64,000 bases of DNA from Candidatus Latescibacterota bacterium (GTDB taxonomy: Bacteria > Latescibacterota > UBA2968 > UBA8231). Position numbers and translations under genes: made by a program. Each line of letters opens with the position of its first letter. Within the stretch, counting starts at the first letter, position 1. The stretch spans positions 2,144,001 through 2,208,000 of the forward strand of contig OZ253462.1 of the NCBI GenBank assembly GCA_965261395.1. The letters run 5' to 3'. Shown one piece after another: positions 1 through 9,133 of the stretch. The notes under the pieces were generated by a model. The model was not told the origin of the DNA and made no database searches. It saw nothing but the letters and a program-made list of their open reading frames with translations.

Positions 1-908
1 AGAGCAAGCGCTCTCAGGTTGGTCAGTTGACTTAACTCGGAGGGGATCGAACCACTTAAATCGTTGCCGTCCAAATACAGCCATTCTAGGTTAGTCAGTT
101 GGCCTAACTCGGAAGGAATCGTACCACTTAAATCGTTGCCAGACAGAAACAGCCATTCTAGGTTGGTCAGTTGACCTAACGCGGCAGGAATCGAACCGCT
201 TAAGTCGTTGTTGGATAGCATAAAAATTTTCAGGTTGGTCAGTTGACCTAACGCGGCAGGAATCGAACCGCTTAAGTCGTTGCCAGACAAATACAGCCAT
301 TCTAGGTTGGTCAATTGACCTAACTCGGAAGGAATCGAACCGCTTAAGTCGTTGTTGGATAAAACAAGATTTTTCAGGTTGGCCAACAGGCCTAACTCAG
401 CAGGTATAGATCCGCTTAACTGGCTTCTGGGCAGATCCAGATGGGTGACGCGCCCGTCGGCATTGGTGGTCACGCCCTCCCAAGCGCCGATAGGTTCATC
501 GCTGTCCCAATTGTCGCCCGTCCAAGCACTGCCTCCACCTGTGGCTTGATAGAAAGCTATCAGTACCGCTCGATCCGGGTTAATCGATATGGACGGTCTG
601 TCTTCTGTTCCGGGTGGTGGGCTACCTGGGGCCGAGCAGTTGGCTGTGTAGATGTGGCCCTCGATGAACACGGTATCGGCGAGGCTGATCTGGCCGTTGA
701 TATTGCGGATCGGAATGGTGACGAGCACGTCCGATGATTGGGTCGTCGCGTTGGCCTTGGCCGCGGCGCGTCGGTAGGTCGCGCCGTTGATCTCGATGGT
801 TTGCCACGGCCCGGCCTGCTCGTCAAAAGCCAACTGAGCAACCGGCGGCTCTTGGTCGGAGCAAGACAAAGACAAAAGCAAGGCAAGGGCAATTAGGGGG
901 CGTAGCAT
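1..908 (-). CDS. Plant-type LRR lipoprotein, paralog of 958..5406; runs off the left edge
   Basis: Manual translation from ATG 908 (AGGAG upstream): MLRPLIALALLLSLSCSDQEPP (lipobox-like LSC), cap DRAVLIAFYQATGGGSAWTGDNW..WEGVTTNADGRVTHL, then 24-aa LxxLxLxxNDLSGSIPxELGQLTN repeats. No stop seen, which explains its absence from the ORF track. Confidence 0.9.
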   Translation of the reverse strand, partial: MLRPLIALALLLSLSCSDQEPPVAQLAFDEQAGPWQTIEINGATYRRAAAKANATTQSSDVLVTIPIRNINGQISLADTVFIEGHIYTANCSAPGSPPPGTEDRPSISINPDRAVLIAFYQATGGGSAWTGDNWDSDEPIGAWEGVTTNADGRVTHLDLPRSQLSGSIPAELGLLANLKNLVLSNNDLSGSIPSELGQLTNLEWLYLSGNDLSGSIPAALGQLTNLKIFMLSNNDLSGSIPAALGQLTNLEWLFLSGNDLSGTIPSELGQLTNLEWLYLDGNDLSGSIPSELSQLTNLRALA

Positions 909-957: not shown

Positions 958-3900
958 CTATTCGCAGACCGACAATTCCAGTTGATCTAGGTCATTTGTC
1001 TCTATCGTTTGCAGACTGGTGGGAATGCACCCGCTTAAGTCGTTGCTTTTCAGGTACAGCTTCTCTAGGTTGGTCAATTGACCTAACTCAGATGGGATCG
1101 AACCACTTAACTCGTTGCCTAACAGAAACAGCGATCTCAGGTTGGTCAATTGACCCAACTCGGAGGGGATTGAGCCGCTTAACTCGTTGCTGCCCAGATT
1201 CAACTCTTCCAGATGGGTCAGTTGGCCTAACTCAACAGGAATCGAACCGCTTAATCGGGTCAGGAACAGCCGCAGCGTTGTCAGGTTGGTCAGGTTGCCT
1301 AACTCAGCCGGAATCGAGCCGCTTATGTCGTTGTTGCCCAGATTCAGCTCTTCCAAGTTGGTCAGTTGGCCTAACTCAGCAGGAATCGAACCACTTAAGT
1401 CGTTGACGTGCAGATTCAGCGTTGTCAGGTTGGTCAGGTTGCCTAACTCAGCCGGAATCGAGCCGCTTAACCAGTTGCGGTACAGATTCAGCGATTGCAG
1501 GTTGGTCAGTTGGCCCAACTCGGCAGGAATCGAACCACTTAAGTCGTTACTGGACAGATCCAAATGGGTGACGCGCCCGTCGGCATTGGTGGTTACACCT
1601 TCCCACTCGTCGATAGGTTCATCGCCGTCCCAATTGTCGCCCGTCCAAGCACTGCCCCCACCCGTGGCTCGATAGAAAGCCATCAATACGGCCCGGTCAG
1701 GCTCATCAGGCTCATTGTCTTCCTGCGAGTCGTCTGAGTCGTCCGAGTCGTCTGAGTCGTCTGAGTCGTCTGAGTCGTCTGAGTCGTCTGAGTCGTCTGA
1801 GTCGTCCGAGTCGTCTGAGTCGTCTGAGTCGTCCGAGTCGTCTGAGTCGTCTGAGTCGTCTGAGTCGTCCGAGTCGTCCGAATTAAGCGATACCGACAAC
1901 TGGTTGTCTGTATCGTCTGTCCCAGTTGATCGGCTTTCTACGGATGAGTCGCAGAAGGACAATCCCAGGCTGCTTGGCGATACCAATTCTTGCAGACCAG
2001 AGGGGAGGCACCCGCTGAAATCGTTGCCGGACAGACGCAGCGTTGTCAGCTTGCTCAGGTTACCTAACGAAGACGGTATCGTACCACTTAAATCGTTGTT
2101 GTCCAGAAGCAGCACTGCCAGCTTGCTCAGGTTACCTAACGAGGACGGTATCGAACCGCTTAAATCGTTGAAGCCCAGAAACAGATTTGTCAGCTTGCTC
2201 AGGTTACCTAACGAGGACGGTATCGAACCGCTTAAATCGTTGTCGCCCAGAACCAGCGCTGTCAAGTTGCTCAGGTTACCTAACGAAGACGGTATCGTAC
2301 CACTTAAATCGTTGTCGAACAGATTCAGATACGTCAGGTTAGTCAAGTTACCTAACGAAGACGGTATCGAACCGCTTAAATCGTTGAAGCCCAATTCCAG
2401 CTTTTTCAGCTTGCTCAGGCTACCTAACGAAGACGGTATCGAACCGCTTAAATCATTCTGTTGCAGTTCCAGCTCTTCCAGGTTGGTCAGGTTACCTAAC
2501 GAGGACGGTATCGAACCGCTTAAATCGGTGTAAGCCAGAAGCAGCTCTTCCAGGTTGGTCAGGTTACCTAACGAAGACGGTATCGAACCGCTTAAATCAT
2601 CGTGGGCCAGCCACAGCTGGGTGACGCGCCCGTCGGCATTGGTGGTGACGCCCTCCCAATTGCCGATAGGTTCATCGCTGCCCCAATTGCTACCCGTCCA
2701 ATCACTGCCTCCACCCGTGGCGCTATAGAAAGCCACCAATACAGCTCGGTCGGAATTAGCCGTATCGTCCGTCTCATCCGTCTCGTCTGTCTCGTCCGTC
2801 TCGTCTGTCTCATCCGTCTCGTCTGTCTCGTCCGTCTCGTCCGCGTCATCCGCGTCATCCGCGTCATCCGACGAGTCGCAGAAGGACAATCCCAGGCTGC
2901 TTGGCGATACCAATCCTCGCAGACTGGAGGGGACGCACCCGCTGAAGTTGTTGTCCCTCAGCCCCAGATCTTCCAGGTTGGTCAGATTACCTAACGAGGA
3001 CGGTATCGAACCACTTAAATCGTTGTTGCCCAGACTCAGATCTTCCAGGTTGGTCAGATTACCTAACGAGGACGGTATCGAACCACTTAATTCGTTGCTG
3101 CTCAGCCACATCAATTCCAGGTTGGTCAGATTACCTAACGAGGACGGTATCGAACCACTTAATTCGTTGTGCATCAGATACATCAATTCCAGGTTGCTCA
3201 GGTTCCCTAACGAGGACGGTATCGAACCACTTAAATCGTTCCAGGACAGATTCAGCCTTTTCAGCTTGCTCAGGTTCCCTAACTCGGAGGGAATCGAACC
3301 ACTTAAATCGCTGTTGCCCAGATCCAGATATTCCAGGTTGCTCAGGTTCCCTAACGAGGAGGGAATCGAACCGCTTATGTCGTTGTGGCCCAGATACAGC
3401 TGTGTCAGGTTAGTCAGGTTACCTAACGAGGACGGTATCGAACCACTTAATCTATCGTTGGACAGGCTCAGCTGGGTGACGCGTCCCTCGTCATTGGTAC
3501 TAACGCCTTCCCAATTGCCGATAGGTTCATCGCTGCCCCAATTGTTGCCCGTCCAATCACTGCCTCCACCTATGGCGCTGTAGAAAGCCATCAATACAGC
3601 TCGGTCGGAATTAGCCGTCTCGTCTGTCTCATCCGTCTCGTCCGTCTCGTCTGTCTCGTCTGTCTCGTCTGTCTCATCCGTCTCGTCTGTCTCGTCTGTC
3701 TCGTCTGTCTCGTCTGTCTCGTCTGTCTCGTCTGTCTCGTCCGCGTCATCCGCGTCATCCGCGTCATCCGACGAGTCGCAGAAAGACAATTCCAGCCTAT
3801 CTAGATCATTTGTCTTTATCGCTCGCAGACTGGCGGGGATGCACCCGCTTAAGTCGTTGCCACTCAGATACAGCCGTTCCAACAAGTTAAGTTGGCCCAA

Positions 3901-5406
3901 CGCAGCCGGAATCGAACCGCTTAACTGGTTGCGTTCCAGTTCTATCTCTTCTACGTTGGTCAGGTTACCTAACTCAACTGGAATTGAACCGCTTAACTGG
4001 TTGCCGTACAGAGTCAGCTTTTCCAAGTTGGTCAGGTTGCCTAACTCAACGGGTATCGAGCCGGTTAACTGGTTGCTGTACAGACGCAGCGATGTCAGGT
4101 TGGTCAGGTTGCCCAACTCAACAGGTATCGAACCACTTAACCGGTTGGCACCCAGCGACAGCCTTTGTAGGTTGGTCAGGTTACCTAACGCAGCCGGAAT
4201 CGAACCGGTTAAGTCGCTGCCGCTCAGATACAACTCTTCCAGGTTGGTCAGGTTACCTAACACAGCCGGAATCGAACCGGTTAAGCCGCCGACCAGGATC
4301 AGCGTTTGTAGGTTAGTCAGGTTGCCTAACTCAACTGGAATCGAGCCGGTTACGCTGCTCAACCTCAGGGATGTCAGGTTGGTCAGGTTGCCTAACTCAA
4401 CTGGAATCGGGCCGCTAAAGTTGCTGGCTTCCAGGTGCAGCCTTTGTAGGTTGGTCAGGTTGCCTAACTCAACAGGAAACGAGCCGCTTAACCGGCTGTA
4501 TTTCAGAATCAGGGATGTCAGATTGGTCAGGTTACCTAACTCAGCCGGAATCGAGCCACTCAAGTTGTTTTCGCCCATAATCAGGGATGTCAGGTTGGTC
4601 AGGTTACCTAACTCAGCCGGAATCGAACCATTCAAGTTGTTTTCGTACAGATACAGCGATTTCAGGTAGGTTAGTTGGCCTAACTCAGCCGGAATTGAGC
4701 CACGTAACCTCGTGTCATATAGAGACAGATGGGTGACGCGTCCGTCGGCATTGGTGTTGACGCCCTGCCAAGTGCCGATAGATTGATCGCTGCCCCAATT
4801 GTTGCCCGTCCAATCCGTTCCTCCACCTGTGGCTCGATAGAAAACCATCAGTATAGCCCGATCAGATAGATCAGTCTGATCCGGGGTCTCGACCGACGAG
4901 CTATCGACTGCAACCGGCGGCGTTTCCACCGACAAGCTATCGACTGTAACCGGCGGCGTTTCCACCGACGAGCTATCGACTGCAACCGGCGGCGTTTCCA
5001 CCGACGAGCTATCGACTGCAACCGGCGGCGTTTCCACCGACGAGCTATCGACTGGAACGAGTGGCGGGATTTCTACCGACGAGCTATCGACTGGAACGAG
5101 TGGCGGGATTTCTATCGACAAACTATCGACTGTATCGGGCAAGCAGTTGGCCGTATAGATGCGGCCCGCAATGACTATGGTATCGGGGAGATTGCTCTGG
5201 TCGTTGATCGGAATGGAGATACGTAAGTCCGATGATTGGGCTGTCGCGTTGGCCTTGGCCGCGACACGTCGGTAGAGCTCGCCGTTGACCGAAGCCGTTT
5301 GCCACGGCCCGGCCTCCTCGTCAAAAGCCGATTGGGCAACCGGCGGATCTTGGTCAGAGCAAGACAGAGGCAAAAGCAGGACGAGGGCAATCAGGAGGCG
5401 TGGCAT
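958..5406 (-). CDS. Multi-domain plant-type LRR lipoprotein: 4 capped LRR domains joined by acidic linkers
   Basis: Signal peptide ending LPLSC; four DRA(V/I)L..FY.A.GGG..W.G.NW N-caps; LxxLxLxxNxLSGSIPxxLGxLxx repeats; SGC(I/V/L)P..L..LS(F/V)C C-caps; DET/DDS linkers. Confidence 0.95.
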   Translation of the reverse strand: MPRLLIALVLLLPLSCSDQDPPVAQSAFDEEAGPWQTASVNGELYRRVAAKANATAQSSDLRISIPINDQSNLPDTIVIAGRIYTANCLPDTVDSLSIEIPPLVPVDSSSVEIPPLVPVDSSSVETPPVAVDSSSVETPPVAVDSSSVETPPVTVDSLSVETPPVAVDSSSVETPDQTDLSDRAILMVFYRATGGGTDWTGNNWGSDQSIGTWQGVNTNADGRVTHLSLYDTRLRGSIPAELGQLTYLKSLYLYENNLNGSIPAELGNLTNLTSLIMGENNLSGSIPAELGNLTNLTSLILKYSRLSGSFPVELGNLTNLQRLHLEASNFSGPIPVELGNLTNLTSLRLSSVTGSIPVELGNLTNLQTLILVGGLTGSIPAVLGNLTNLEELYLSGSDLTGSIPAALGNLTNLQRLSLGANRLSGSIPVELGNLTNLTSLRLYSNQLTGSIPVELGNLTNLEKLTLYGNQLSGSIPVELGNLTNVEEIELERNQLSGSIPAALGQLNLLERLYLSGNDLSGCIPASLRAIKTNDLDRLELSFCDSSDDADDADDADETDETDETDETDETDETDETDETDETDETDETDETDETDETANSDRAVLMAFYSAIGGGSDWTGNNWGSDEPIGNWEGVSTNDEGRVTQLSLSNDRLSGSIPSSLGNLTNLTQLYLGHNDISGSIPSSLGNLSNLEYLDLGNSDLSGSIPSELGNLSKLKRLNLSWNDLSGSIPSSLGNLSNLELMYLMHNELSGSIPSSLGNLTNLELMWLSSNELSGSIPSSLGNLTNLEDLSLGNNDLSGSIPSSLGNLTNLEDLGLRDNNFSGCVPSSLRGLVSPSSLGLSFCDSSDDADDADDADETDETDETDETDETDETDETDETDDTANSDRAVLVAFYSATGGGSDWTGSNWGSDEPIGNWEGVTTNADGRVTQLWLAHDDLSGSIPSSLGNLTNLEELLLAYTDLSGSIPSSLGNLTNLEELELQQNDLSGSIPSSLGSLSKLKKLELGFNDLSGSIPSSLGNLTNLTYLNLFDNDLSGTIPSSLGNLSNLTALVLGDNDLSGSIPSSLGNLSKLTNLFLGFNDLSGSIPSSLGNLSKLAVLLLDNNDLSGTIPSSLGNLSKLTTLRLSGNDFSGCLPSGLQELVSPSSLGLSFCDSSVESRSTGTDDTDNQLSVSLNSDDSDDSDDSDDSDDSDDSDDSDDSDDSDDSDDSDDSDDSDDSDDSDDSDDSQEDNEPDEPDRAVLMAFYRATGGGSAWTGDNWDGDEPIDEWEGVTTNADGRVTHLDLSSNDLSGSIPAELGQLTNLQSLNLYRNWLSGSIPAELGNLTNLTTLNLHVNDLSGSIPAELGQLTNLEELNLGNNDISGSIPAELGNLTNLTTLRLFLTRLSGSIPVELGQLTHLEELNLGSNELSGSIPSELGQLTNLRSLFLLGNELSGSIPSELGQLTNLEKLYLKSNDLSGCIPTSLQTIETNDLDQLELSVCE
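1727..1879. repeat. 9-bp tandem repeat GAGTCGTCY, ~17 copies, encoding the (DDS)n linker
   Basis: Directly visible. Confidence 0.95.
2765..2870. repeat. 9-bp tandem repeats encoding the (DDA)3(DET)n linker
   Basis: Directly visible; shorter sister of 3616..3770. Confidence 0.9.
3616..3770. repeat. 9-bp tandem repeats encoding the (DDA)3(DET)n linker
   Basis: Directly visible GTCTCGTCT and GCGTCATCC arrays. Confidence 0.95.
4888..5133. repeat. 36/39-bp tandem repeats encoding a PPVAVDSSSVET-like stalk
   Basis: About 6-7 near-identical units after the N-terminal domain. Confidence 0.9.
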
Positions 5407-5465
5407 AAGAGGAATCCTTTAATGATCCAACGGGAGTAATTCCGGCAGTGGTACTGGATTCACGC

Positions 5466-5552
5466 CTATTCGCAGCGTTTTTCGTCCTTGCTGCAGGCCA
5501 ATAGCCCCAAGGGCAGGACAAGAGTCAGACTCGTAGCTATTAGTCGTTTCAT
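5466..5552 (-). CDS. 28-aa mini-lipoprotein or collapsed LRR-lipoprotein gene (MKRLIATSLTLVLPLGLLACSKDEKRCE)
   Basis: Manual translation; lipobox LLAC; ends TGC GAA TAG like the LRR gene ending at 958; GGGGA upstream. Confidence 0.7.
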   Translation of the reverse strand: MKRLIATSLTLVLPLGLLACSKDEKRCE

Positions 5553-5576
5553 GGCGAACCGTCCCCGATGGATGAC

Positions 5577-5627
5577 AATGTAAATATTTACATTCGGAAA
5601 TAGAAAATAACACTGTAAAAGTTTACA
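5577..5627. promoter_or_regulatory. Two TGTAAA-NN-TTTACA palindromic operators upstream of the LRR array
   Basis: Perfect 18-bp palindrome AATGTAAATATTTACATT (5577-5594) and TGTAAAAGTTTACA (5614-5627) in AT-rich intergenic DNA. Confidence 0.65.
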
Positions 5628-5732
5628 TCAAGCAAAAAATTCCACCGACATAGCGTATTTTTTACAACCCTTTGTTTTTATTGGAGTCGCCACCCAGACT
5701 CAAACCGGAGATCTATTCATTAAGAAGCAGAG

Positions 5733-7421
5733 TCACCCCAAGTACACAAACAAGTACACCGCCAAGAAAATCGTCACCAATAACACGCTGCTACTGATAG
5801 GCCATGACCGCGCAAAAACGCCGGTCGGGCCGTGGTACTGGCGCACCTGTTCTATTAAAGCGAAGACCCGTCGCTTGCCCCAAGTGATCAGTCCATCCCG
5901 CAGCGGTGCCCCCACCTGTGCGCACAACCGCGCTGCGCTGGGCAGCAGCTTTCGGTAGGTCCAGTCCACGTCGATATTGGCCGAGCGCAGCTCCGGCGGA
6001 TAGATGCCCGTCAGCTTGAGCGCGACAAAGGCCAGTGCCGAAAAGAACAACAACTGGAGCTGGAGGACGATGTGGGTCGCATCGTACGGATTGTAGTCAA
6101 CTGGGTAGGGCAGGAGCCGGTACAGATAGTGCGGGAATGAGCCAATGCCAATACACAGCGCCGCCCCGATCCCCATCGCCAAAAGCATGTTGCGCGGTGC
6201 TTCGCGGCAGCGGATCCCCGCGTCGTGGGCGAAGAAGGCAAAGAAGGGTATTTTGATGCCGGCGTGATGGAAGACGCCAGCCGAGGCAAACAGCAGCAGC
6301 AGCCAGACGACAAGGTGTCCCTCGTTGGCCGCGGCCTGCATGACCATCGACTTGCTGACAAAGCCGCTAAAGAGCGGGAAGGCCGAAATCGACGCGGCCC
6401 CGATCATGCAGAAGCCGCAGGTCCAAGGCATGGATTTGTACAGCCCCCCGAGATCCGAGCCGTTGATCCTGCCGGTGCGGTAGAGCACCGCGCCCATCGA
6501 CATAAAAAGCAGACCTTTGAAGAGCACGTCGTTGAAGGCGTGGGCAACCGCGCCGTTGACGCCCATACCTGGCCCCAAGCCGACGCCGACAACCATAAAG
6601 CCGATCTGGTTGATCATGCTGTAGCCCAACACGCGGCGCAGATCATTTTCAATAACCGCATAGAAGATGGGAAACATCGCCATGGCCGCGCCGATGTAGA
6701 GCAGGCATTCGGTGCCGGCAAAACTGCGCGCCAACACATAGACCGCGGTCTTGGTGGTAAAGGAGCTCAAAAAAACCGCGCCGGTGGGCGTGGACTCCGG
6801 GTAGGCATCCACCAGCCACGAGTGCAAGAATGGGAAGGCGCATTTAATGCCAACGCCGAGGAAGATCAGCCGCGTGGCCCAGCTATCGATGCCCAGATGC
6901 CCCAGCGCCAGCGAGCCGGTCTGCTGGTAGTGCCACGCCGTGCCGACCAAAAGCAGCAGGCCAGAGCTGATGTGGATCAGGAGGTAGCGCGTGCCCGCGG
7001 CAATAGCCCTTTCGCTTTGGTTGGCCCAAATCTGGAAGACCGAGCTAATCGCCAACAGCTCCCAGAAGATGAAGAGCGCGATGAGATCGCCGGCAAAAAC
7101 CGCACCCACGGCCGCGCCCGCGTACAGGAAGCCGGTCGCCTGTTGCAGCCGATCTTTCAAATGCAGCGAGAAGAGCGCGGCGAGGAAGGCGGCCACGTGA
7201 AAGAGATAGCCAAAGAGCAGGCTGAGTTGGTCAACGCGCACCCAGTGCAGCTCGTAGCCAGCTAGGGAGCCGACTTGGCTGTCGCCAATCTGATAGCCGA
7301 GGAGATTGGCGAATCCGGCCAACGGCAAAAGGAGCAACGCGATCCGCCGCACGGCCAGCGGCAAGACGGGCAACAGCAGCCCGCCTAACAGCAGGAAGGC
7401 CGCCGGGTGCAGGCTAGTCAT
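5733..7421 (-). CDS. mnhD: Mrp/Mnh Na+/H+ antiporter subunit D-like (third copy)
   Basis: Proton_antipo_M motifs FWE, GIKCAFPFLHSWLVDAY, LFKGLLFM, GFVSKSM. Confidence 0.85.
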   Translation of the reverse strand: MTSLHPAAFLLLGGLLLPVLPLAVRRIALLLLPLAGFANLLGYQIGDSQVGSLAGYELHWVRVDQLSLLFGYLFHVAAFLAALFSLHLKDRLQQATGFLYAGAAVGAVFAGDLIALFIFWELLAISSVFQIWANQSERAIAAGTRYLLIHISSGLLLLVGTAWHYQQTGSLALGHLGIDSWATRLIFLGVGIKCAFPFLHSWLVDAYPESTPTGAVFLSSFTTKTAVYVLARSFAGTECLLYIGAAMAMFPIFYAVIENDLRRVLGYSMINQIGFMVVGVGLGPGMGVNGAVAHAFNDVLFKGLLFMSMGAVLYRTGRINGSDLGGLYKSMPWTCGFCMIGAASISAFPLFSGFVSKSMVMQAAANEGHLVVWLLLLFASAGVFHHAGIKIPFFAFFAHDAGIRCREAPRNMLLAMGIGAALCIGIGSFPHYLYRLLPYPVDYNPYDATHIVLQLQLLFFSALAFVALKLTGIYPPELRSANIDVDWTYRKLLPSAARLCAQVGAPLRDGLITWGKRRVFALIEQVRQYHGPTGVFARSWPISSSVLLVTIFLAVYLFVYLG

Positions 7422-7674
7422 AGTAATCCTCGCGGCGCATCAGCACCTTGCGTAGCTGGGTGGCCGTCACAACCAAAAGCACGCAAGCGACAAACCCGTA
7501 TATCGCGTAAAAACCGAACCATCCCTCAACCGGAAAGACACCCTCGGCAAAGTTCAAGTGCCGATGGACGAGCAAGTCCAAGCCCAAGAGCAAGGCGCAG
7601 AGGGCGAAGAAGATCCATATCAGGCGGTGGACGTTCCGCGGCTGGTCGAATAGGTGTTTTTTTTCTGGGGGCAT
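7414..7674 (-). CDS. Small 2-TM membrane protein of the mrp cluster
   Basis: Two hydrophobic helices, C-terminal LMRREDYYD, overlaps the downstream gene. Confidence 0.75.
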   Translation of the reverse strand: MPPEKKHLFDQPRNVHRLIWIFFALCALLLGLDLLVHRHLNFAEGVFPVEGWFGFYAIYGFVACVLLVVTATQLRKVLMRREDYYD

Positions 7675-7678
7675 GGCC

Positions 7679-9133
7679 TTATTCTCCGATCTGGCGGCAG
7701 AGGTCGAGGAGAGGGTCGGGGTAGAAGAAGAGCACTAGCCCGCCCAGTGCCGTGCAAACAAGTGGCAGGACGCAGGCCAGCGGGGCTTCCTGTAGGCCCT
7801 TTTCTCCAGCAGGTGCTGCGTAGAAGAAGGCGTTGACGGTCACCGGCAACAGATAGGCGACGTTGAGCAGTGAGCTTACCAAAAGTACGCCGATGGCCAC
7901 GTACTGCCCTGCGTCCAGCCCGGCGAGAATGAGGTACCATTTGCTCCAGGCACCTCCCAGCGGCGGCAAGCCGATGATGCTGAGTGATCCGATGAGAAAG
8001 GCCCCCATCGTCCACGGCATTTGCCGGCCAATGCCCTTCATCTCGCTGATCTCGGTCTTGTGCAAGGCAACCGCAATGGCCCCGGCACAAAAGAAGAGCG
8101 TGATCTTGCCAAAGGCGTGCATGGCGATGTGCAGACTGCCGCCGAGGATGCCCCAACTATTGGCCAAGGCCGCGCCGAGGACGATGTAGGAGAGCTGACT
8201 GACCGTGGAATACGCCAAGCGCGCCTTGAGGTTGTCCTTGGTCATGGCCACCAACGAGCCAATGAGAATCGTGGCGCAGGCCACGTAGGCCAGATACGTG
8301 CCCAAGCCGGTGTCGGCGAGCAGGTCAATGCCGAAGATATAGACGACCACTTTGAGGACGGTGAAGACGCCGGCCTTGACCACGGCCACCGCGTGCAGCA
8401 GGGCGCTGACCGGGGCCGGAGCCACCATGGCGGCGGGGAGCCAGCGGTGAAAGGGCATGAGCGCGGCCTTTCCCGTGCCAAAGGCGTAGAGAAAGAGCAG
8501 GACGCCGAGAATCCACGTCGGGGCCTTGCCCGCGAGGATGCCGCCGGGGACGAAGGCGAGCGTGCCGGTGAGGTGGTAGGTAGCGACCATCGCCAGCAGC
8601 AGGAAGCAGATCGAGGTCGAAAGCAGTACCCCCATATAGACGCGGCCCCCCGCTGTAGCCTCCGTGCTGCGGTGGTGGGTGACCAGCGGGTAAGTTGACA
8701 GCGTCAGCGCCTCATAGCAGAAAAACAGCGTCAGCATGTTGCCGGCGAAGGCCGCGCCCAAGGCCGCGGCGATCGCCAAGGCGAAGAAGGCGAAAAAGCG
8801 GGTCTGGTTTTCCTCGTGGTGGCCCCGCATGTAGCCGATGGAGTACACCGAGGTCACTATCCACAGCCCAGCGGCGATTAGCGCAAAGAGCGCACCGAGC
8901 GGCTCGACCTCAAAGACCAAGGGTACGTCAGGGAAGACCTCCACCAAATGCACCATTGGCCGGGCACCTGCGACGACTTTGGGCACCAAGGTGCAGACCG
9001 CGGCAAAGGTGCCTAACCCAGCGAGCAAAGTCGCGGTCTCGCGCAGGTTGGGACGACGACCCAAAAGGGCGATCAATGGTGCAGCACCCAAGGGCAGCAG
9101 CACGGCCACGACGATGGCGGCGGAGGCACTCAT
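7679..9133 (-). CDS. mnhD: Mrp/Mnh antiporter subunit D-like (second copy)
   Basis: ATG 9133 overlaps the upstream stop (ATGA); KAALMPFHRWLPAAMVAPAPVSALLH, LAYSTVSQLSY. Confidence 0.88.
   Translation of the reverse strand: MSASAAIVVAVLLPLGAAPLIALLGRRPNLRETATLLAGLGTFAAVCTLVPKVVAGARPMVHLVEVFPDVPLVFEVEPLGALFALIAAGLWIVTSVYSIGYMRGHHEENQTRFFAFFALAIAAALGAAFAGNMLTLFFCYEALTLSTYPLVTHHRSTEATAGGRVYMGVLLSTSICFLLLAMVATYHLTGTLAFVPGGILAGKAPTWILGVLLFLYAFGTGKAALMPFHRWLPAAMVAPAPVSALLHAVAVVKAGVFTVLKVVVYIFGIDLLADTGLGTYLAYVACATILIGSLVAMTKDNLKARLAYSTVSQLSYIVLGAALANSWGILGGSLHIAMHAFGKITLFFCAGAIAVALHKTEISEMKGIGRQMPWTMGAFLIGSLSIIGLPPLGGAWSKWYLILAGLDAGQYVAIGVLLVSSLLNVAYLLPVTVNAFFYAAPAGEKGLQEAPLACVLPLVCTALGGLVLFFYPDPLLDLCRQIGE

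What the first reader, a model, noticed from the sequence alone, without database searches (positions are those of the whole stretch)
1945..3600. LRR ligand-face codons hypervariable at positions 1-2 on a frozen scaffold
Seen: in domains 2-3 the scaffold DNA (AAC GAT TTA AGY GGT TCG ATA CCG TCY TCG TTA GGT AAC CTG) is almost invariant, even at silent sites. The xxLxLxx residues differ in every repeat (TQLYLGH, KRLNLSW, ELMWLSS, TYLNLFD, AVLLLDN, TTLRLSG). By manual count about 11/15 central codons are NNT and about 24/30 of the next two codons are NNC, so the third base is kept while the first two change. Established: these positions form the concave binding surface, and NNY variation recalls DGR targets. 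However, scaffold adenines stay fixed and no RT is present. Inference: extreme diversifying selection, or an undescribed targeted diversification or segmental gene conversion that generates a VLR-like repertoire.
Basis: partly seen in the sequence, partly recalled or inferred. Interest (0 to 1): 0.78.

Follow-up and report, generated by a model that had tools for sequence, protein, structure and literature searches.

The report
Ordinary fast-evolving LRR binding face
A large secreted leucine-rich-repeat protein of an uncultured Latescibacterota bacterium has near-uniform repeats that differ mainly at five binding-face residues, and this comes from ordinary repeat duplication, recombination and selection rather than a new mutation machine.

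Summary
In one 1482-aa gene (window 958-5406, minus strand) with four plant-type LRR modules, codons 2, 3, 5, 7 and 8 of each 24-codon repeat vary at bases 1-2. The other 19 codons are similar, and the third bases of the variable codons are shared far more than genome codon usage predicts.

The exotic readings fail:
- The genome's only RVT_1 match is a truncated group II intron reverse transcriptase. There is no template repeat, no adenine bias and no donor cassette.
- Two congeners (flanks about 91-93% identical) keep each repeat's own face: 74 of 110 face codons have unchanged bases 1-2.
- Between orthologs these codons change at about the silent rate (omega 0.9-1.3). Among paralogous repeats the ratio is 2-7.
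- Scaffolds carry concerted and mosaic changes, repeat numbers differ, and a relative has a duplicated module with 866 identical bases.

Best reading: tandem duplication and short-tract gene conversion keep scaffolds alike, while new copies diverge quickly at exposed positions and then settle. This is known from fungal WD/ANK/TPR repeats and plant LRR genes. The same pattern occurs in 29 of 29 related modules examined. This scan noted similar LRR patterns before on other DNA (e1-2738392, e1-5714091).

The parts
958..5406 (-). Whole gene, 1482 aa: signal peptide ending LSC, a roughly 75-aa N-terminal domain, 12-aa repeats, then four LRR modules (D1-D4). Each module has an N-cap, 24-aa plant-type LRRs and a Cys-containing C-cap, and the modules are joined by acidic linkers.
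   Evidence: ORF; translation. Pfam LRR_1, LRR_14, LRR_4 and LRR_8 match with E 2e-88 to 3e-66.
3481..3615 (-). N-cap of module D2 (aa 598-642, ANSDRAVLMAFYSAIGGGSDW...GRVTQL).
   Evidence: It differs from the D3 cap at 13 of 135 nt.
2905..3480 (-). D2 LRR array: 8 repeats of 72 nt. Repeat k starts at 3480-72(k-1). The face codons are codons 2, 3, 5, 7 and 8 of each repeat.
2761..2904 (-). D2 C-cap tail plus the acidic linker (DDA)3(DET)n, built of 9-bp tandem repeats.
   Evidence: Tandem Repeats Finder rows 2760-2870; translation.
2626..2760 (-). N-cap of module D3 (aa 883-927).
1978..2625 (-). D3 LRR array: 9 repeats of 72 nt. Repeat k starts at 2625-72(k-1). Repeats 1-6 and 9 have one-to-one orthologs in relative G005.
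1727..1878 (-). Acidic (DSD)n linker between D3 and D4: a 9-bp repeat, 16.9 copies.
997..1572 (-). D4 LRR array: 8 repeats. It is orthologous to the last module of the G010 gene.
3766..4737 (-). Module D1 LRRs and C-cap. This array is less regular and includes one 23-aa and one 22-aa repeat.
4892..5132 (-). 36-bp tandem repeats encoding VDSSSVETPPVA-type 12-mers, lying between the N-terminal domain and D1.
3..908 (-). Adjacent one-module paralog. It starts at 908 and runs off the window start. In the genome it is 457 codons with 12 LRRs, and it has the same N-terminal domain.

Best explanation
This is a secreted or lipid-anchored multi-module plant-type LRR protein whose repeat arrays evolve like other internally conserved repeat proteins, with no dedicated mutator.

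(1) Repeats and whole modules arise by tandem duplication and unequal recombination. This step is shown.

(2) Short-tract gene conversion between repeats keeps the 51-57-nt scaffolds alike and sometimes moves small pieces of the face. Mosaics and concerted changes show that exchange occurs. The tract mechanism itself is inferred. A plausible detail is that strand exchange begins in identical scaffold and stalls at the mismatch-dense face codons; this detail is also inferred.

(3) New copies diverge quickly at the five solvent-exposed beta-strand positions, under positive plus relaxed selection. The statistics show this. After that, each repeat keeps its own face, which drifts at about the neutral rate. 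Ortholog comparison shows this.

The shared third bases are leftovers of the ancestral unit, roughly GAA/ACA-GAG-CTG-AAT-CTG-GGC-AAC. Silent change has been modest, while amino-acid change needs bases 1-2.

The likely function is binding of external, probably host, ligands on the concave face. This is inferred from homology.
For: Orthology of faces. Relative G005 has flanks 91.7-93% identical in nt and flank-gene dS of 0.20-0.31 in the frames where dS exceeds dN. It holds a module whose repeats carry the same face codons in the same order: WLAH, LAY, ELQQ, ELGF, TYLNL, TALVL, TTLRL. The patch-bearing halves match one-to-one for 7 of 7 alignable repeats.

Rates between orthologs. I pooled 22 orthologous repeat pairs: 6 D3 pairs against G005, and 8 D4 plus 8 neighbour-gene pairs against G010.
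- Face codons: Nd 49.5 over 263.5 sites, Sd 9.5 over 66.5 sites. Omega is 1.31, or 0.93 against all LRR silent sites, and is not different from 1 (P 0.76).
- Scaffold: omega 0.23.
- The N:S contrast between face and scaffold has odds ratio 7.9, P 1e-8.

Rates among paralogs.
- Face dN is 1.14-1.28 against scaffold dS of 0.19-0.27.
- The minimum-event ratio is 3.4 for D2+D3, 4.2 for G005 module 1 and 7.3 for a G004 module, with P 1e-5, 8e-4 and 2e-5.

Exchange between repeats.
- Scaffold codon 14 is ACG in 5 of 5 G005 repeats but TCG in 4 of 5 of their G000 orthologs.
- The GSLS-K/N + LK segment sits one repeat further along in G000 than in G005.
- The scaffold of G010 D4 repeat 4 is the repeat-6 type. 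It has 0-1 differences from repeat 6 and 11 from its positional ortholog.
- A 1071-nt module duplicate in G010 is identical from nt 84 to nt 949.
- Repeat numbers differ between orthologs: 9 against 8, and 12 against 10.
- Double nt1-2 changes are in excess: 10 observed against 4.8 expected, P 0.02.
- The 16-repeat G004 module shows reassorted face variants on identical scaffolds.

Generality. All 29 of 29 modules examined in 11 loci plus the window's own region show face pN of 0.41-0.67 against scaffold pN of 0.03-0.21.

Fold. The best solved relatives are plant LRR receptor-kinase ectodomains, led by GSO1 6s6q at E 2.5e-170. The model puts strands at repeat positions 3-8.

Precedent. The same combination is described for fungal WD repeats (PMC1805685, abstract read) and for ANK/TPR repeats (PMC4986451, passages read). 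A two-phase regime, fast among copies and slow between orthologs, is described across life (PMC5120217, abstract read).
Against: - Some repeat pairs are hard to explain without very strong selection or face-sparing conversion. D2 repeats 5 and 6 differ at 6 nt, all in codons 5, 7 and 8, and at none of the other 63 nt.
- Conversion is inferred from mosaics without an outgroup, so its direction and tract lengths are unknown. I ran no formal recombination test.
- Only two genomes provide orthologs, and none provides one for D2.
- Positional pairing in D4 includes repeats 3 and 4, which look rearranged. This inflates the counted differences.
- NG86 on 5 codons has very few silent sites (66.5 in the pooled ortholog set).
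- Ortholog scaffold dS in D3 is lower than in flank genes (0.14 against 0.20-0.31). This could also mean constraint on silent sites.
- In a run from a third study (X1), a 98-nt contig keeps the repeat-2 scaffold but differs at codon 5 (2 nt), codon 7 and codon 8. So faces do differ between close lineages.
- Rare within-population variants could not be examined, because only assembled contigs were available.
Confidence: 0.75

Rival explanations
1. Recent expansion plus positive selection only. The arrays are simply young, and strong diversifying selection changed the five face codons by point mutation. Gene conversion plays no material part.
For: - Third bases of the face codons are still largely shared.
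- Young arrays such as the 16-repeat G004 module have scaffold pS of 0.04 with face pN already at 0.41.
- Paralog event ratios are 3.4-7.3.
- The two-phase pattern is described in PMC5120217 (abstract read).
Against: - The concerted ACG/TCG state of scaffold codon 14 across orthologous repeats would need 4-5 parallel transversions.
- The G010 D4 repeat-4 scaffold is the repeat-6 type.
- A scaffold segment is shifted by one repeat between species.
- Face third bases are twice as diverged as scaffold third bases (0.39 against 0.21). This suggests the scaffold looks younger than the faces.
Confidence: 0.13
2. Targeted diversification. A DGR-like or undescribed enzyme mutates bases 1-2 of the face codons, giving a repertoire within populations.
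For: - The NNY look of codons 5, 7 and 8.
- The excess of double nt1-2 changes between orthologs (P 0.02).
- Face-focused differences in the X1 contigs.
Against: - One RVT_1 match in 6.55 Mb. It best fits group II intron RT/maturase (237 bits, profile positions 5-218 of 353), is cut off, lies beside an ISKra4 transposase, and is about 166 kb away.
- No template-like copy above 78% identity elsewhere in the genome.
- Thirteen scaffold adenine sites carry 8 mismatches in total. Within face codons, G and T sites vary as much per site as A sites: A 44 mismatches over 7 sites, G 28 over 4, T 15 over 2.
- 74 of 110 face codons are unchanged at nt1-2 between species, and their rate is about the silent rate.
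- Contigs of two other studies (X6, X7) match the face segments with 0 differences, for example 1958-2080, 2571-2689, 2885-2994, 3211-3359 and 3331-3442.
Confidence: 0.04
3. Nucleotide-level constraint. Scaffold silent sites are held by selection on the mRNA or on rare codons (TTA, ATA, GGT), for example to pace translation for solenoid folding.
For: - The scaffold uses codons that are rare in this genome. TTA is 4% of Leu codons, ATA 11% of Ile and GGT 14% of Gly, yet they recur in every repeat.
- D3 ortholog scaffold dS is 0.14, against 0.20-0.31 in flank genes.
Against: - Other modules of the family use other codons for the same residues. The G004 scaffold has TTG, ATC, CTA and GGC.
- Scaffold dS in D4 and in the neighbour gene (0.21 and 0.39) is as high as in the flanks.
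- Scaffold silent sites are polymorphic at 9 or more codons.
Confidence: 0.05
4. Assembly artefact. Repeat collapse or polishing in a metagenome-assembled genome made the scaffolds uniform.
For: The genome is a metagenome assembly, to judge from the record titles of its relatives. Short-read contigs break inside these arrays.
Against: - Independent contigs from two other studies reproduce face-plus-scaffold stretches of 110-149 nt exactly.
- A separately assembled relative has the same face codons.
- The frame is open for 1482 codons.
Confidence: 0.01

Closest known systems
Internally conserved repeat domains with hypervariable binding-face positions: fungal HNWD WD40 repeats and ANK/TPR repeats of fungal NLRs (PMC1805685, abstract; PMC4986451, passages)
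   Same: - Near-uniform repeats.
- A few codons per repeat on the interaction surface with an excess of amino-acid change.
- Repeat-number differences between alleles or orthologs.
- Exchange of repeat units.
   Different: - The repeat here is an LRR; PMC4986451 found no LRR in fungal NLRs.
- The host is a bacterium and the protein is extracellular, with no NOD domain.
- Internal identity is lower: mean 69-71% aa in D2/D3, against their 85% criterion.
- RIP does not apply.
Plant-specific class of LRR: ectodomains of plant receptor kinases such as GSO1, FLS2 and PEPR1
   Same: - The 24-residue unit LxxLxLxxNxLSGxIPxxLGxLxx.
- An N-cap with a conserved W.
- These are the best sequence matches among solved structures.
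- Ligand contacts on the concave beta-sheet (recalled from the literature).
   Different: - There is no kinase and no transmembrane segment.
- Four short modules (about 8-12 repeats each) sit in one chain, joined by acidic low-complexity linkers.
- The leader is bacterial and lipoprotein-like.
Diversifying selection on xxLxLxx residues of plant resistance-gene LRRs, with sequence exchange between paralogs. I recall the classic Cf-4/9 and NBS-LRR studies. The review PMC3645687 was seen only in a search listing.
   Same: Solvent-exposed x positions evolve fastest. Gene conversion and unequal crossing-over act among paralogs.
   Different: Here the comparison is among repeats inside one bacterial gene. 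Between orthologs the excess disappears (omega about 1).
Eukaryote-like repeat proteins of sponge-associated bacteria, including Latescibacterota (PMC12993501, passages)
   Same: - The phylum matches, by the record titles of relatives.
- LRR domains are listed among the eukaryote-like proteins of such genomes.
   Different: - In the passages I read, that paper counts domains. I saw no description of multi-module architecture or of codon-level evolution.
- The sponge habitat of this genome rests on weak evidence here.
Diversity-generating retroelements (recalled: Bordetella phage BPP-1 Mtd and relatives)
   Same: NNY-looking variable codons in a ligand-binding protein.
   Different: No DGR-type reverse transcriptase, no template repeat, no adenine specificity, and variation spread periodically over 17 repeats.
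Lamprey variable lymphocyte receptors and TAL-effector repeats (recalled)
   Same: A uniform repeat scaffold with specificity residues at fixed positions.
   Different: There are no silent donor cassettes and no sign of somatic assembly. The repeats are far less uniform than TALE repeats.

Membership tests
Leucine-rich repeat proteins, plant-specific 24-residue class | Significant match to LRR profile models | tested here: met
   Pfam LRR_1 E 2.3e-88, LRR_14 5.9e-84, LRR_4 4e-75, LRR_8 2.6e-66, all above the curated cut-offs.
Leucine-rich repeat proteins, plant-specific 24-residue class | 24-residue unit LxxLxLxxNxL(S/T)GxIPxxLGxLxx (consensus recalled from the literature) | tested here: met
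   All 15 interior D2/D3 repeats are 24 aa. G13, I15, P16, L19, G20 and L22 are invariant, and position 11 is L in 14 of 15. The best solved relatives are plant LRR receptor kinases.
Leucine-rich repeat proteins, plant-specific 24-residue class | Solenoid with a short beta-strand at LxxLxL forming the concave face | tested here: met
   The single-sequence AlphaFold2 model has mean pLDDT 72.3. Strands fall at repeat positions 3-8 and helices at positions 17-21 in repeats 3-8. Confidence is moderate.
Diversity-generating retroelement target | A DGR-type reverse transcriptase in the genome, usually close by | tested here: not met
   There is 1 RVT_1 match in the genome. Its best family is group II intron RT/maturase. 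It is truncated and lies about 166 kb away.
Diversity-generating retroelement target | A template repeat nearly identical to the variable region | tested here: not met
   blastn of window 1945-3600 against the genome found nothing above 78% identity outside the two adjacent LRR genes.
Diversity-generating retroelement target | Variation confined to positions that are adenine in the template | tested here: not met
   Consensus A, G and T sites in face codons vary alike per site. Thirteen scaffold A sites carry 8 mismatches in 195 cells.
Cassette-assembled receptors (VLR-like) or antigenic-variation systems | An array of silent donor cassettes | tested here: not met
   No further near-identical units exist in the genome. 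The other LRR genes are 71-78% identical.
Cassette-assembled receptors (VLR-like) or antigenic-variation systems | Many variants within one population | tested here: inconclusive
   Contigs of runs X6 and X7 match the face segments exactly. Contigs drop rare variants, and no raw reads were available.
Internally conserved repeats under concerted evolution (fungal HNWD type) | Repeat identity of 85% or more over 100 aa or more (criterion of PMC4986451) | tested here: not met
   Mean aa identity between repeats is 0.69 (D2) and 0.71 (D3). The G004 relative reaches 0.81.
Internally conserved repeats under concerted evolution (fungal HNWD type) | Repeat-number differences and exchange of units between copies | tested here: met
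   Repeat counts are 9 against 8 and 12 against 10. Scaffolds are mosaic, and G010 has a duplicated module.
Internally conserved repeats under concerted evolution (fungal HNWD type) | Excess amino-acid change at the binding-face codons | tested here: met
   This holds among paralogous repeats only: ratio 3.4, P 1e-5. Between orthologs omega is about 1. No likelihood site model was run.

The most novel reading that the evidence does not exclude
The Latescibacterota multi-module LRR family is a germline combinatorial recognition repertoire. Mismatch-limited gene conversion homogenises only the roughly 51-nt scaffolds. It also shuffles 12-21-nt face 'mini-cassettes' among repeats and modules, as the reassorted EW/QR/GA/GW x D/S/F x ED/NS/NG variants of the G004 array suggest. 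Lineages living in the same host would then quickly acquire different binding surfaces. This would be a bacterial, heritable counterpart of cassette-based receptor diversification.
Probability: 0.1. Interest if true: 0.6.

Novelty: new member of a known kind. Interest (0 to 1): 0.3.

Why it matters
It closes an attractive but wrong lead. A pattern that looks like targeted hypermutation (NNY codons on a uniform scaffold) is what duplication, short-tract conversion and selection on exposed residues produce by themselves. Comparison with orthologs is the quick way to tell the two apart.

It also documents a large, fast-turning family of multi-module plant-type LRR surface proteins in uncultured Latescibacterota. 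Gene presence, module number and repeat number all differ between genomes whose flanking DNA is about 91-93% identical. These proteins are reasonable candidates for host or particle recognition, and the five face positions per repeat are the residues to test.

Tried and rejected
- **Word-indexed protein search with D2-D3.** It gave 7919 LRR proteins with E of 1e-30 or lower among 8000 candidates. The best were 32-54% identical and none was an ortholog, so it was of no use for rates.
- **The search for related loci, D2-D3 in genome contigs.** 600 pattern hits, none confirmed.
- **Exact 36-nt search in metagenome contigs.** 0 matches.
- **The search for related loci, D3 in metagenome contigs.** 10 loci, all 57% identical or less. 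No same-species alleles were obtained, so no population-level test was possible.
- **Genus-wide genome search with D3.** 8 of 31 genomes matched at E of 1e-60 or lower. Only G005 has a true D3 ortholog, and none has one for D2.
- **Read laying.** All four runs are kept as assembled contigs that break into roughly 100-150-nt pieces inside the arrays. Depth, absence of variants and uncovered parts therefore say nothing. Run X2 (labelled sponge metagenome) gave 14 pieces, none 99% or more alike, so it holds relatives only and is weak evidence of habitat.
- **GENECONV-style permutation of polymorphic sites.** Considered and not run. The built-in rate difference between face and scaffold would give false positives.
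- **Likelihood site models (PAML, HyPhy).** Not available in the box. I used Nei-Gojobori counts and a minimum-spanning-tree event count instead.
- **Codon usage as the explanation of the third-base pattern.** Tested and rejected.
Full report
**What is there**

The region lies inside one long minus-strand gene, window 958-5406, encoding 1482 aa. The protein starts with a hydrophobic leader ending LSC. A lipoprotein-type signal is inferred, although the box is not canonical. An N-terminal domain of about 75 aa follows, then 12-aa repeats encoded by a 36-bp tandem repeat, then four LRR modules.

Each module has an N-cap (DRAVL.AFY.ATGGG..W...W.GV), an array of 24-aa repeats, and a C-cap with two cysteines. 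Acidic linkers built of 9-bp repeats, (DET)n and (DSD)n, join the modules.

Pfam LRR models match strongly. The best solved relatives by sequence are plant LRR receptor-kinase ectodomains, such as GSO1, At4g26540 and FLS2. A one-module paralog with the same N-terminal domain lies next to the gene, at window 3-908 and beyond the window start.

Record titles of close relatives read Candidatus Latescibacterota. The genome is a single 6.55-Mb contig with 59.3% G+C.

**Check of the observation**

D2 is 8 repeats and D3 is 9 repeats, each of exactly 72 nt. I used 15 of the 17 repeats and left out the Cys-bearing last repeat of each module.

- Variation is concentrated in codons 2, 3, 5, 7 and 8.
- Mean pairwise differences there are 0.70, 0.59 and 0.39 at nt1, nt2 and nt3. 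In the other 19 codons they are 0.09, 0.06 and 0.21.
- Codon 5 ends in T in 10 of 15 repeats. Codons 7 and 8 end in C in 25 of 30.
- Genome codon usage, taken from 1832 long ORFs, does not explain this. For the amino acids present it predicts 3.4 T at codon 5, even given the following CTG, and 6.9 and 8.2 C at codons 7 and 8. Codons 2 (A, 12/15) and 3 (G, 11/15) behave the same way.

Two qualifications apply. The scaffold is similar but not frozen, with silent pS of 0.17-0.22. The third base of the face codons is about twice as variable as scaffold third bases, so nothing protects it.

**Is there a mutator?**

- The whole genome has one match to RVT_1. It is a 327-aa frame that best fits group II intron RT/maturase. 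It covers profile positions 5-218 of 353, scores below that family's cut-off, ends right after the YADD motif, and abuts an ISKra4 transposase. It lies about 166 kb from the gene.
- blastn of window 1945-3600 against the genome finds nothing above 78% identity outside the two adjacent LRR genes. There is therefore no template repeat and no silent cassette store.
- Variation is not adenine-specific. In face codons, consensus A, G and T sites carry 44 mismatches over 7 sites, 28 over 4 and 15 over 2. Thirteen scaffold adenine sites carry 8 mismatches in total.

**Orthologs decide the question**

A search of 41 genomes, the window's own plus 40 relatives, showed that the family is large (35 of 41 matched). 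Only two relatives hold orthologs of parts of this gene.

- G010 is syntenic, with flanks 85-92% identical in nt. It shares D4 and the neighbour gene but has other modules in place of D2 and D3.
- G005 carries its gene at a different chromosomal place, with flanks 91.7-93% identical. It has a module orthologous to D3.

In G005 the repeats carry the same faces in the same order, often the same codons: TGG CTG GCC CAC; GCT TAC ACC; GAA CTG CAA CAG; GGC TTC. Even the private silent variants of repeat 4 (TTG ACT) are shared. The patch-bearing halves of the repeats pair one-to-one, 7 of 7. The faces are therefore older than the split of these genomes and are inherited stably.

**Rates**

Flank genes give dS of 0.20-0.36 and dN of 0.014-0.06 in the frames where dS exceeds dN.

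For orthologous repeats I pooled 22 pairs.
- D3: 6 of 7 alignable pairs. The first pair was dropped because its codons 1-3 sit at the cap junction. G000 repeats 7-8 and G005 repeat 1 have no partner.
- D4: all 8 positional pairs.
- Neighbour gene: the first 8 repeats, out of 12 in G000 and 10 in G010.

Results:
- Face codons: Nd 49.5 over 263.5 sites and Sd 9.5 over 66.5 sites. Omega is 1.31, or 0.93 when all LRR silent sites are the yardstick. It cannot be distinguished from 1 (P 0.76).
- Scaffold omega is 0.23.
- 74 of 110 face codons keep their first two bases.

Among paralogous repeats the picture differs. Face dN is 1.14-1.28, against dS of 0.48-0.54 in the same codons and 0.19-0.27 in the scaffold. 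A conservative count of the minimum substitutions needed per column gives a face nonsynonymous rate 3.4 times the silent rate in D2+D3, with binomial P 1e-5.

Fast divergence among copies with slow divergence between orthologs is the two-phase regime that PMC5120217 reports for protein repeats in general (abstract read).

**Recombination**

Several observations show exchange between repeats.
- Scaffold codon 14 is ACG (Thr) in 5 of 5 G005 repeats and TCG (Ser) in 4 of 5 of their G000 orthologs, while the faces stay orthologous.
- The segment GSLS(K/N)-LK lies after the ELQQ repeat in G000 and after the LAY repeat in G005.
- Scaffold halves do not keep the one-to-one orthology that face halves keep.
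- In D4, the scaffold of G010 repeat 4 is the repeat-6 type, with 0-1 differences against 11 to its positional partner. The face of G010 repeat 1 (AAT CTG GGC AAC) equals that of G000 repeat 4.
- G010 holds two copies of a 1071-nt module that are identical from nt 84 to nt 949.
- Repeat numbers differ between orthologs.
- Double changes at nt1-2 are in excess, 10 observed against 4.8 expected, P 0.02. Small replaced tracts would produce this.

The face third bases (0.39) look about twice as old as scaffold third bases (0.21). This fits partial homogenisation of the scaffold. I infer, but did not show, that conversion tracts start in identical scaffold and stop at the mismatch-rich face.

**Generality**

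In 29 of 29 modules with 6 or more regular repeats, taken from the window's own region and 11 loci of relatives, face pN is 0.41-0.67 and scaffold pN is 0.03-0.21. Scaffold pS ranges from 0.04 to 0.61.

The youngest array is in G004. It has 16 repeats, scaffold pS of 0.04 and face pN of 0.41. A few face variants are reassorted on identical scaffolds, with adjacent identical units. The phenomenon is thus a property of the family and not of this locus.

**Population evidence**

Ten runs from four studies hold part of the stretch. Only assembled contigs could be laid.
- In X6 and X7, which come from two different studies, pieces of 110-149 nt covering face plus scaffold match with 0 differences.
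- In X1, a 98-nt piece keeps the scaffold of D2 repeat 2 but differs at codon 5 (2 nt), codon 7 and codon 8, plus one silent site. Other X1 pieces differ at repeat 3 in codon 3 (2 nt), codon 8 and codon 9.

Related lineages therefore differ mainly at faces, as the model expects. Rare variants inside one population could not be assessed.

**Structure**

A single-sequence AlphaFold2 model of D3 (mean pLDDT 72.3, pTM 0.75) is a regular solenoid. Strands lie at repeat positions 3-8 and short helices at positions 17-21. Positions 3, 5, 7 and 8 therefore lie on the strand, and position 2 lies just before it. I recall that alternate strand residues line the concave ligand-binding face; I did not measure this here.

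**Comparison and verdict**

[quoted passage not shown] These show concerted evolution, repeat-number polymorphism and positive selection at a few interface codons (PMC1805685, abstract; PMC4986451, passages). Plant resistance-gene LRRs behave similarly (recalled).

LRR domains are listed among the eukaryote-like proteins of sponge-associated Latescibacterota (PMC12993501, passages). In what I read of that paper I saw no account of this architecture. Supplementary files of the papers were not open and may hold more.

Two earlier notes of this scan describe the same kind of pattern in other genomes: e1-2738392 in a protist symbiont and e1-5714091 in a giant virus.

I file the finding as a new member of a known kind. 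It is a well-documented example, and it is ordinary in mechanism.

Noticed in passing
whole genome; window 2554-2625, 3337-3480: The palindrome CAGCTG is about ten-fold under-represented in the genome: 185 observed against 1880 expected from a 4th-order Markov estimate, the lowest ratio of all 64 six-base palindromes. CAG before CTG is 14% of Gln codons, against 60% overall. Three of the 185 sites lie in this one gene, at the VTQL/LTQL starts of D2 and D3. This hints at a restriction system and at a recent or foreign origin of these modules.
   Followed up: partly
window 958-5406: The LRR gene has 53.3% G+C against 59.3% for the genome. Its scaffold is built of codons that are rare here: TTA is 4% of Leu codons, ATA 11% of Ile, GGT 14% of Gly and AGT 10% of Ser. 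Other modules of the family in relatives use different codons.
   Followed up: partly
L014 (G010:C1:4380000-4392000), gene at 3906-8612 minus strand: The G010 ortholog contains two tandem copies of a 357-aa module (N-cap plus 12 LRRs). The copies are identical over 866 consecutive nt, so the module was duplicated or converted very recently.
   Followed up: yes
L015/L018 (G005:C163) against own genome about 1440082-1441322: The G005 gene (1479 aa, five modules, one orthologous to D3) sits between genes whose counterparts in this genome are adjacent, with no LRR gene between them. The family therefore moves or is lost between genomes whose flanks are about 92% identical.
   Followed up: partly
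L011 (G004:C1:3411865-3415503), module from offset 1629 on the minus strand: An array of 16 LRRs has scaffolds that are all but identical at the DNA level (pS 0.04). A small set of face variants (EW/QR/GA/GW; D/S/F; ED/NS/NG/GV/SY) is recombined in different combinations, and some adjacent units are fully identical.
   Followed up: partly
window 1727-1878, 2760-2870, 3617-3770, 4892-5132: The in-frame 9-bp acidic repeats (DSD, DET, DDA) and the 36-bp repeats (VDSSSVETPPVA) that form the inter-module linkers differ in copy number between G000, G010 and G005. They are likely slippage-prone spacers.
   Followed up: no
L001 (G000:C1:2313219-2316659): A group II intron reverse transcriptase frame is cut off after its YADD motif by an ISKra4-family transposase gene. 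It is the only RVT_1 match in the genome.
   Followed up: yes
own genome 1449989-1451464 and 6360036-6361565: Further small LRR proteins have the same N-cap. One has a long (QPEQSQ)n linker. The other has 'LRGFIP' repeats and a C-terminal non-LRR domain. They are 71-78% identical in nt to D2/D3 over 63-266-nt stretches.
   Followed up: no
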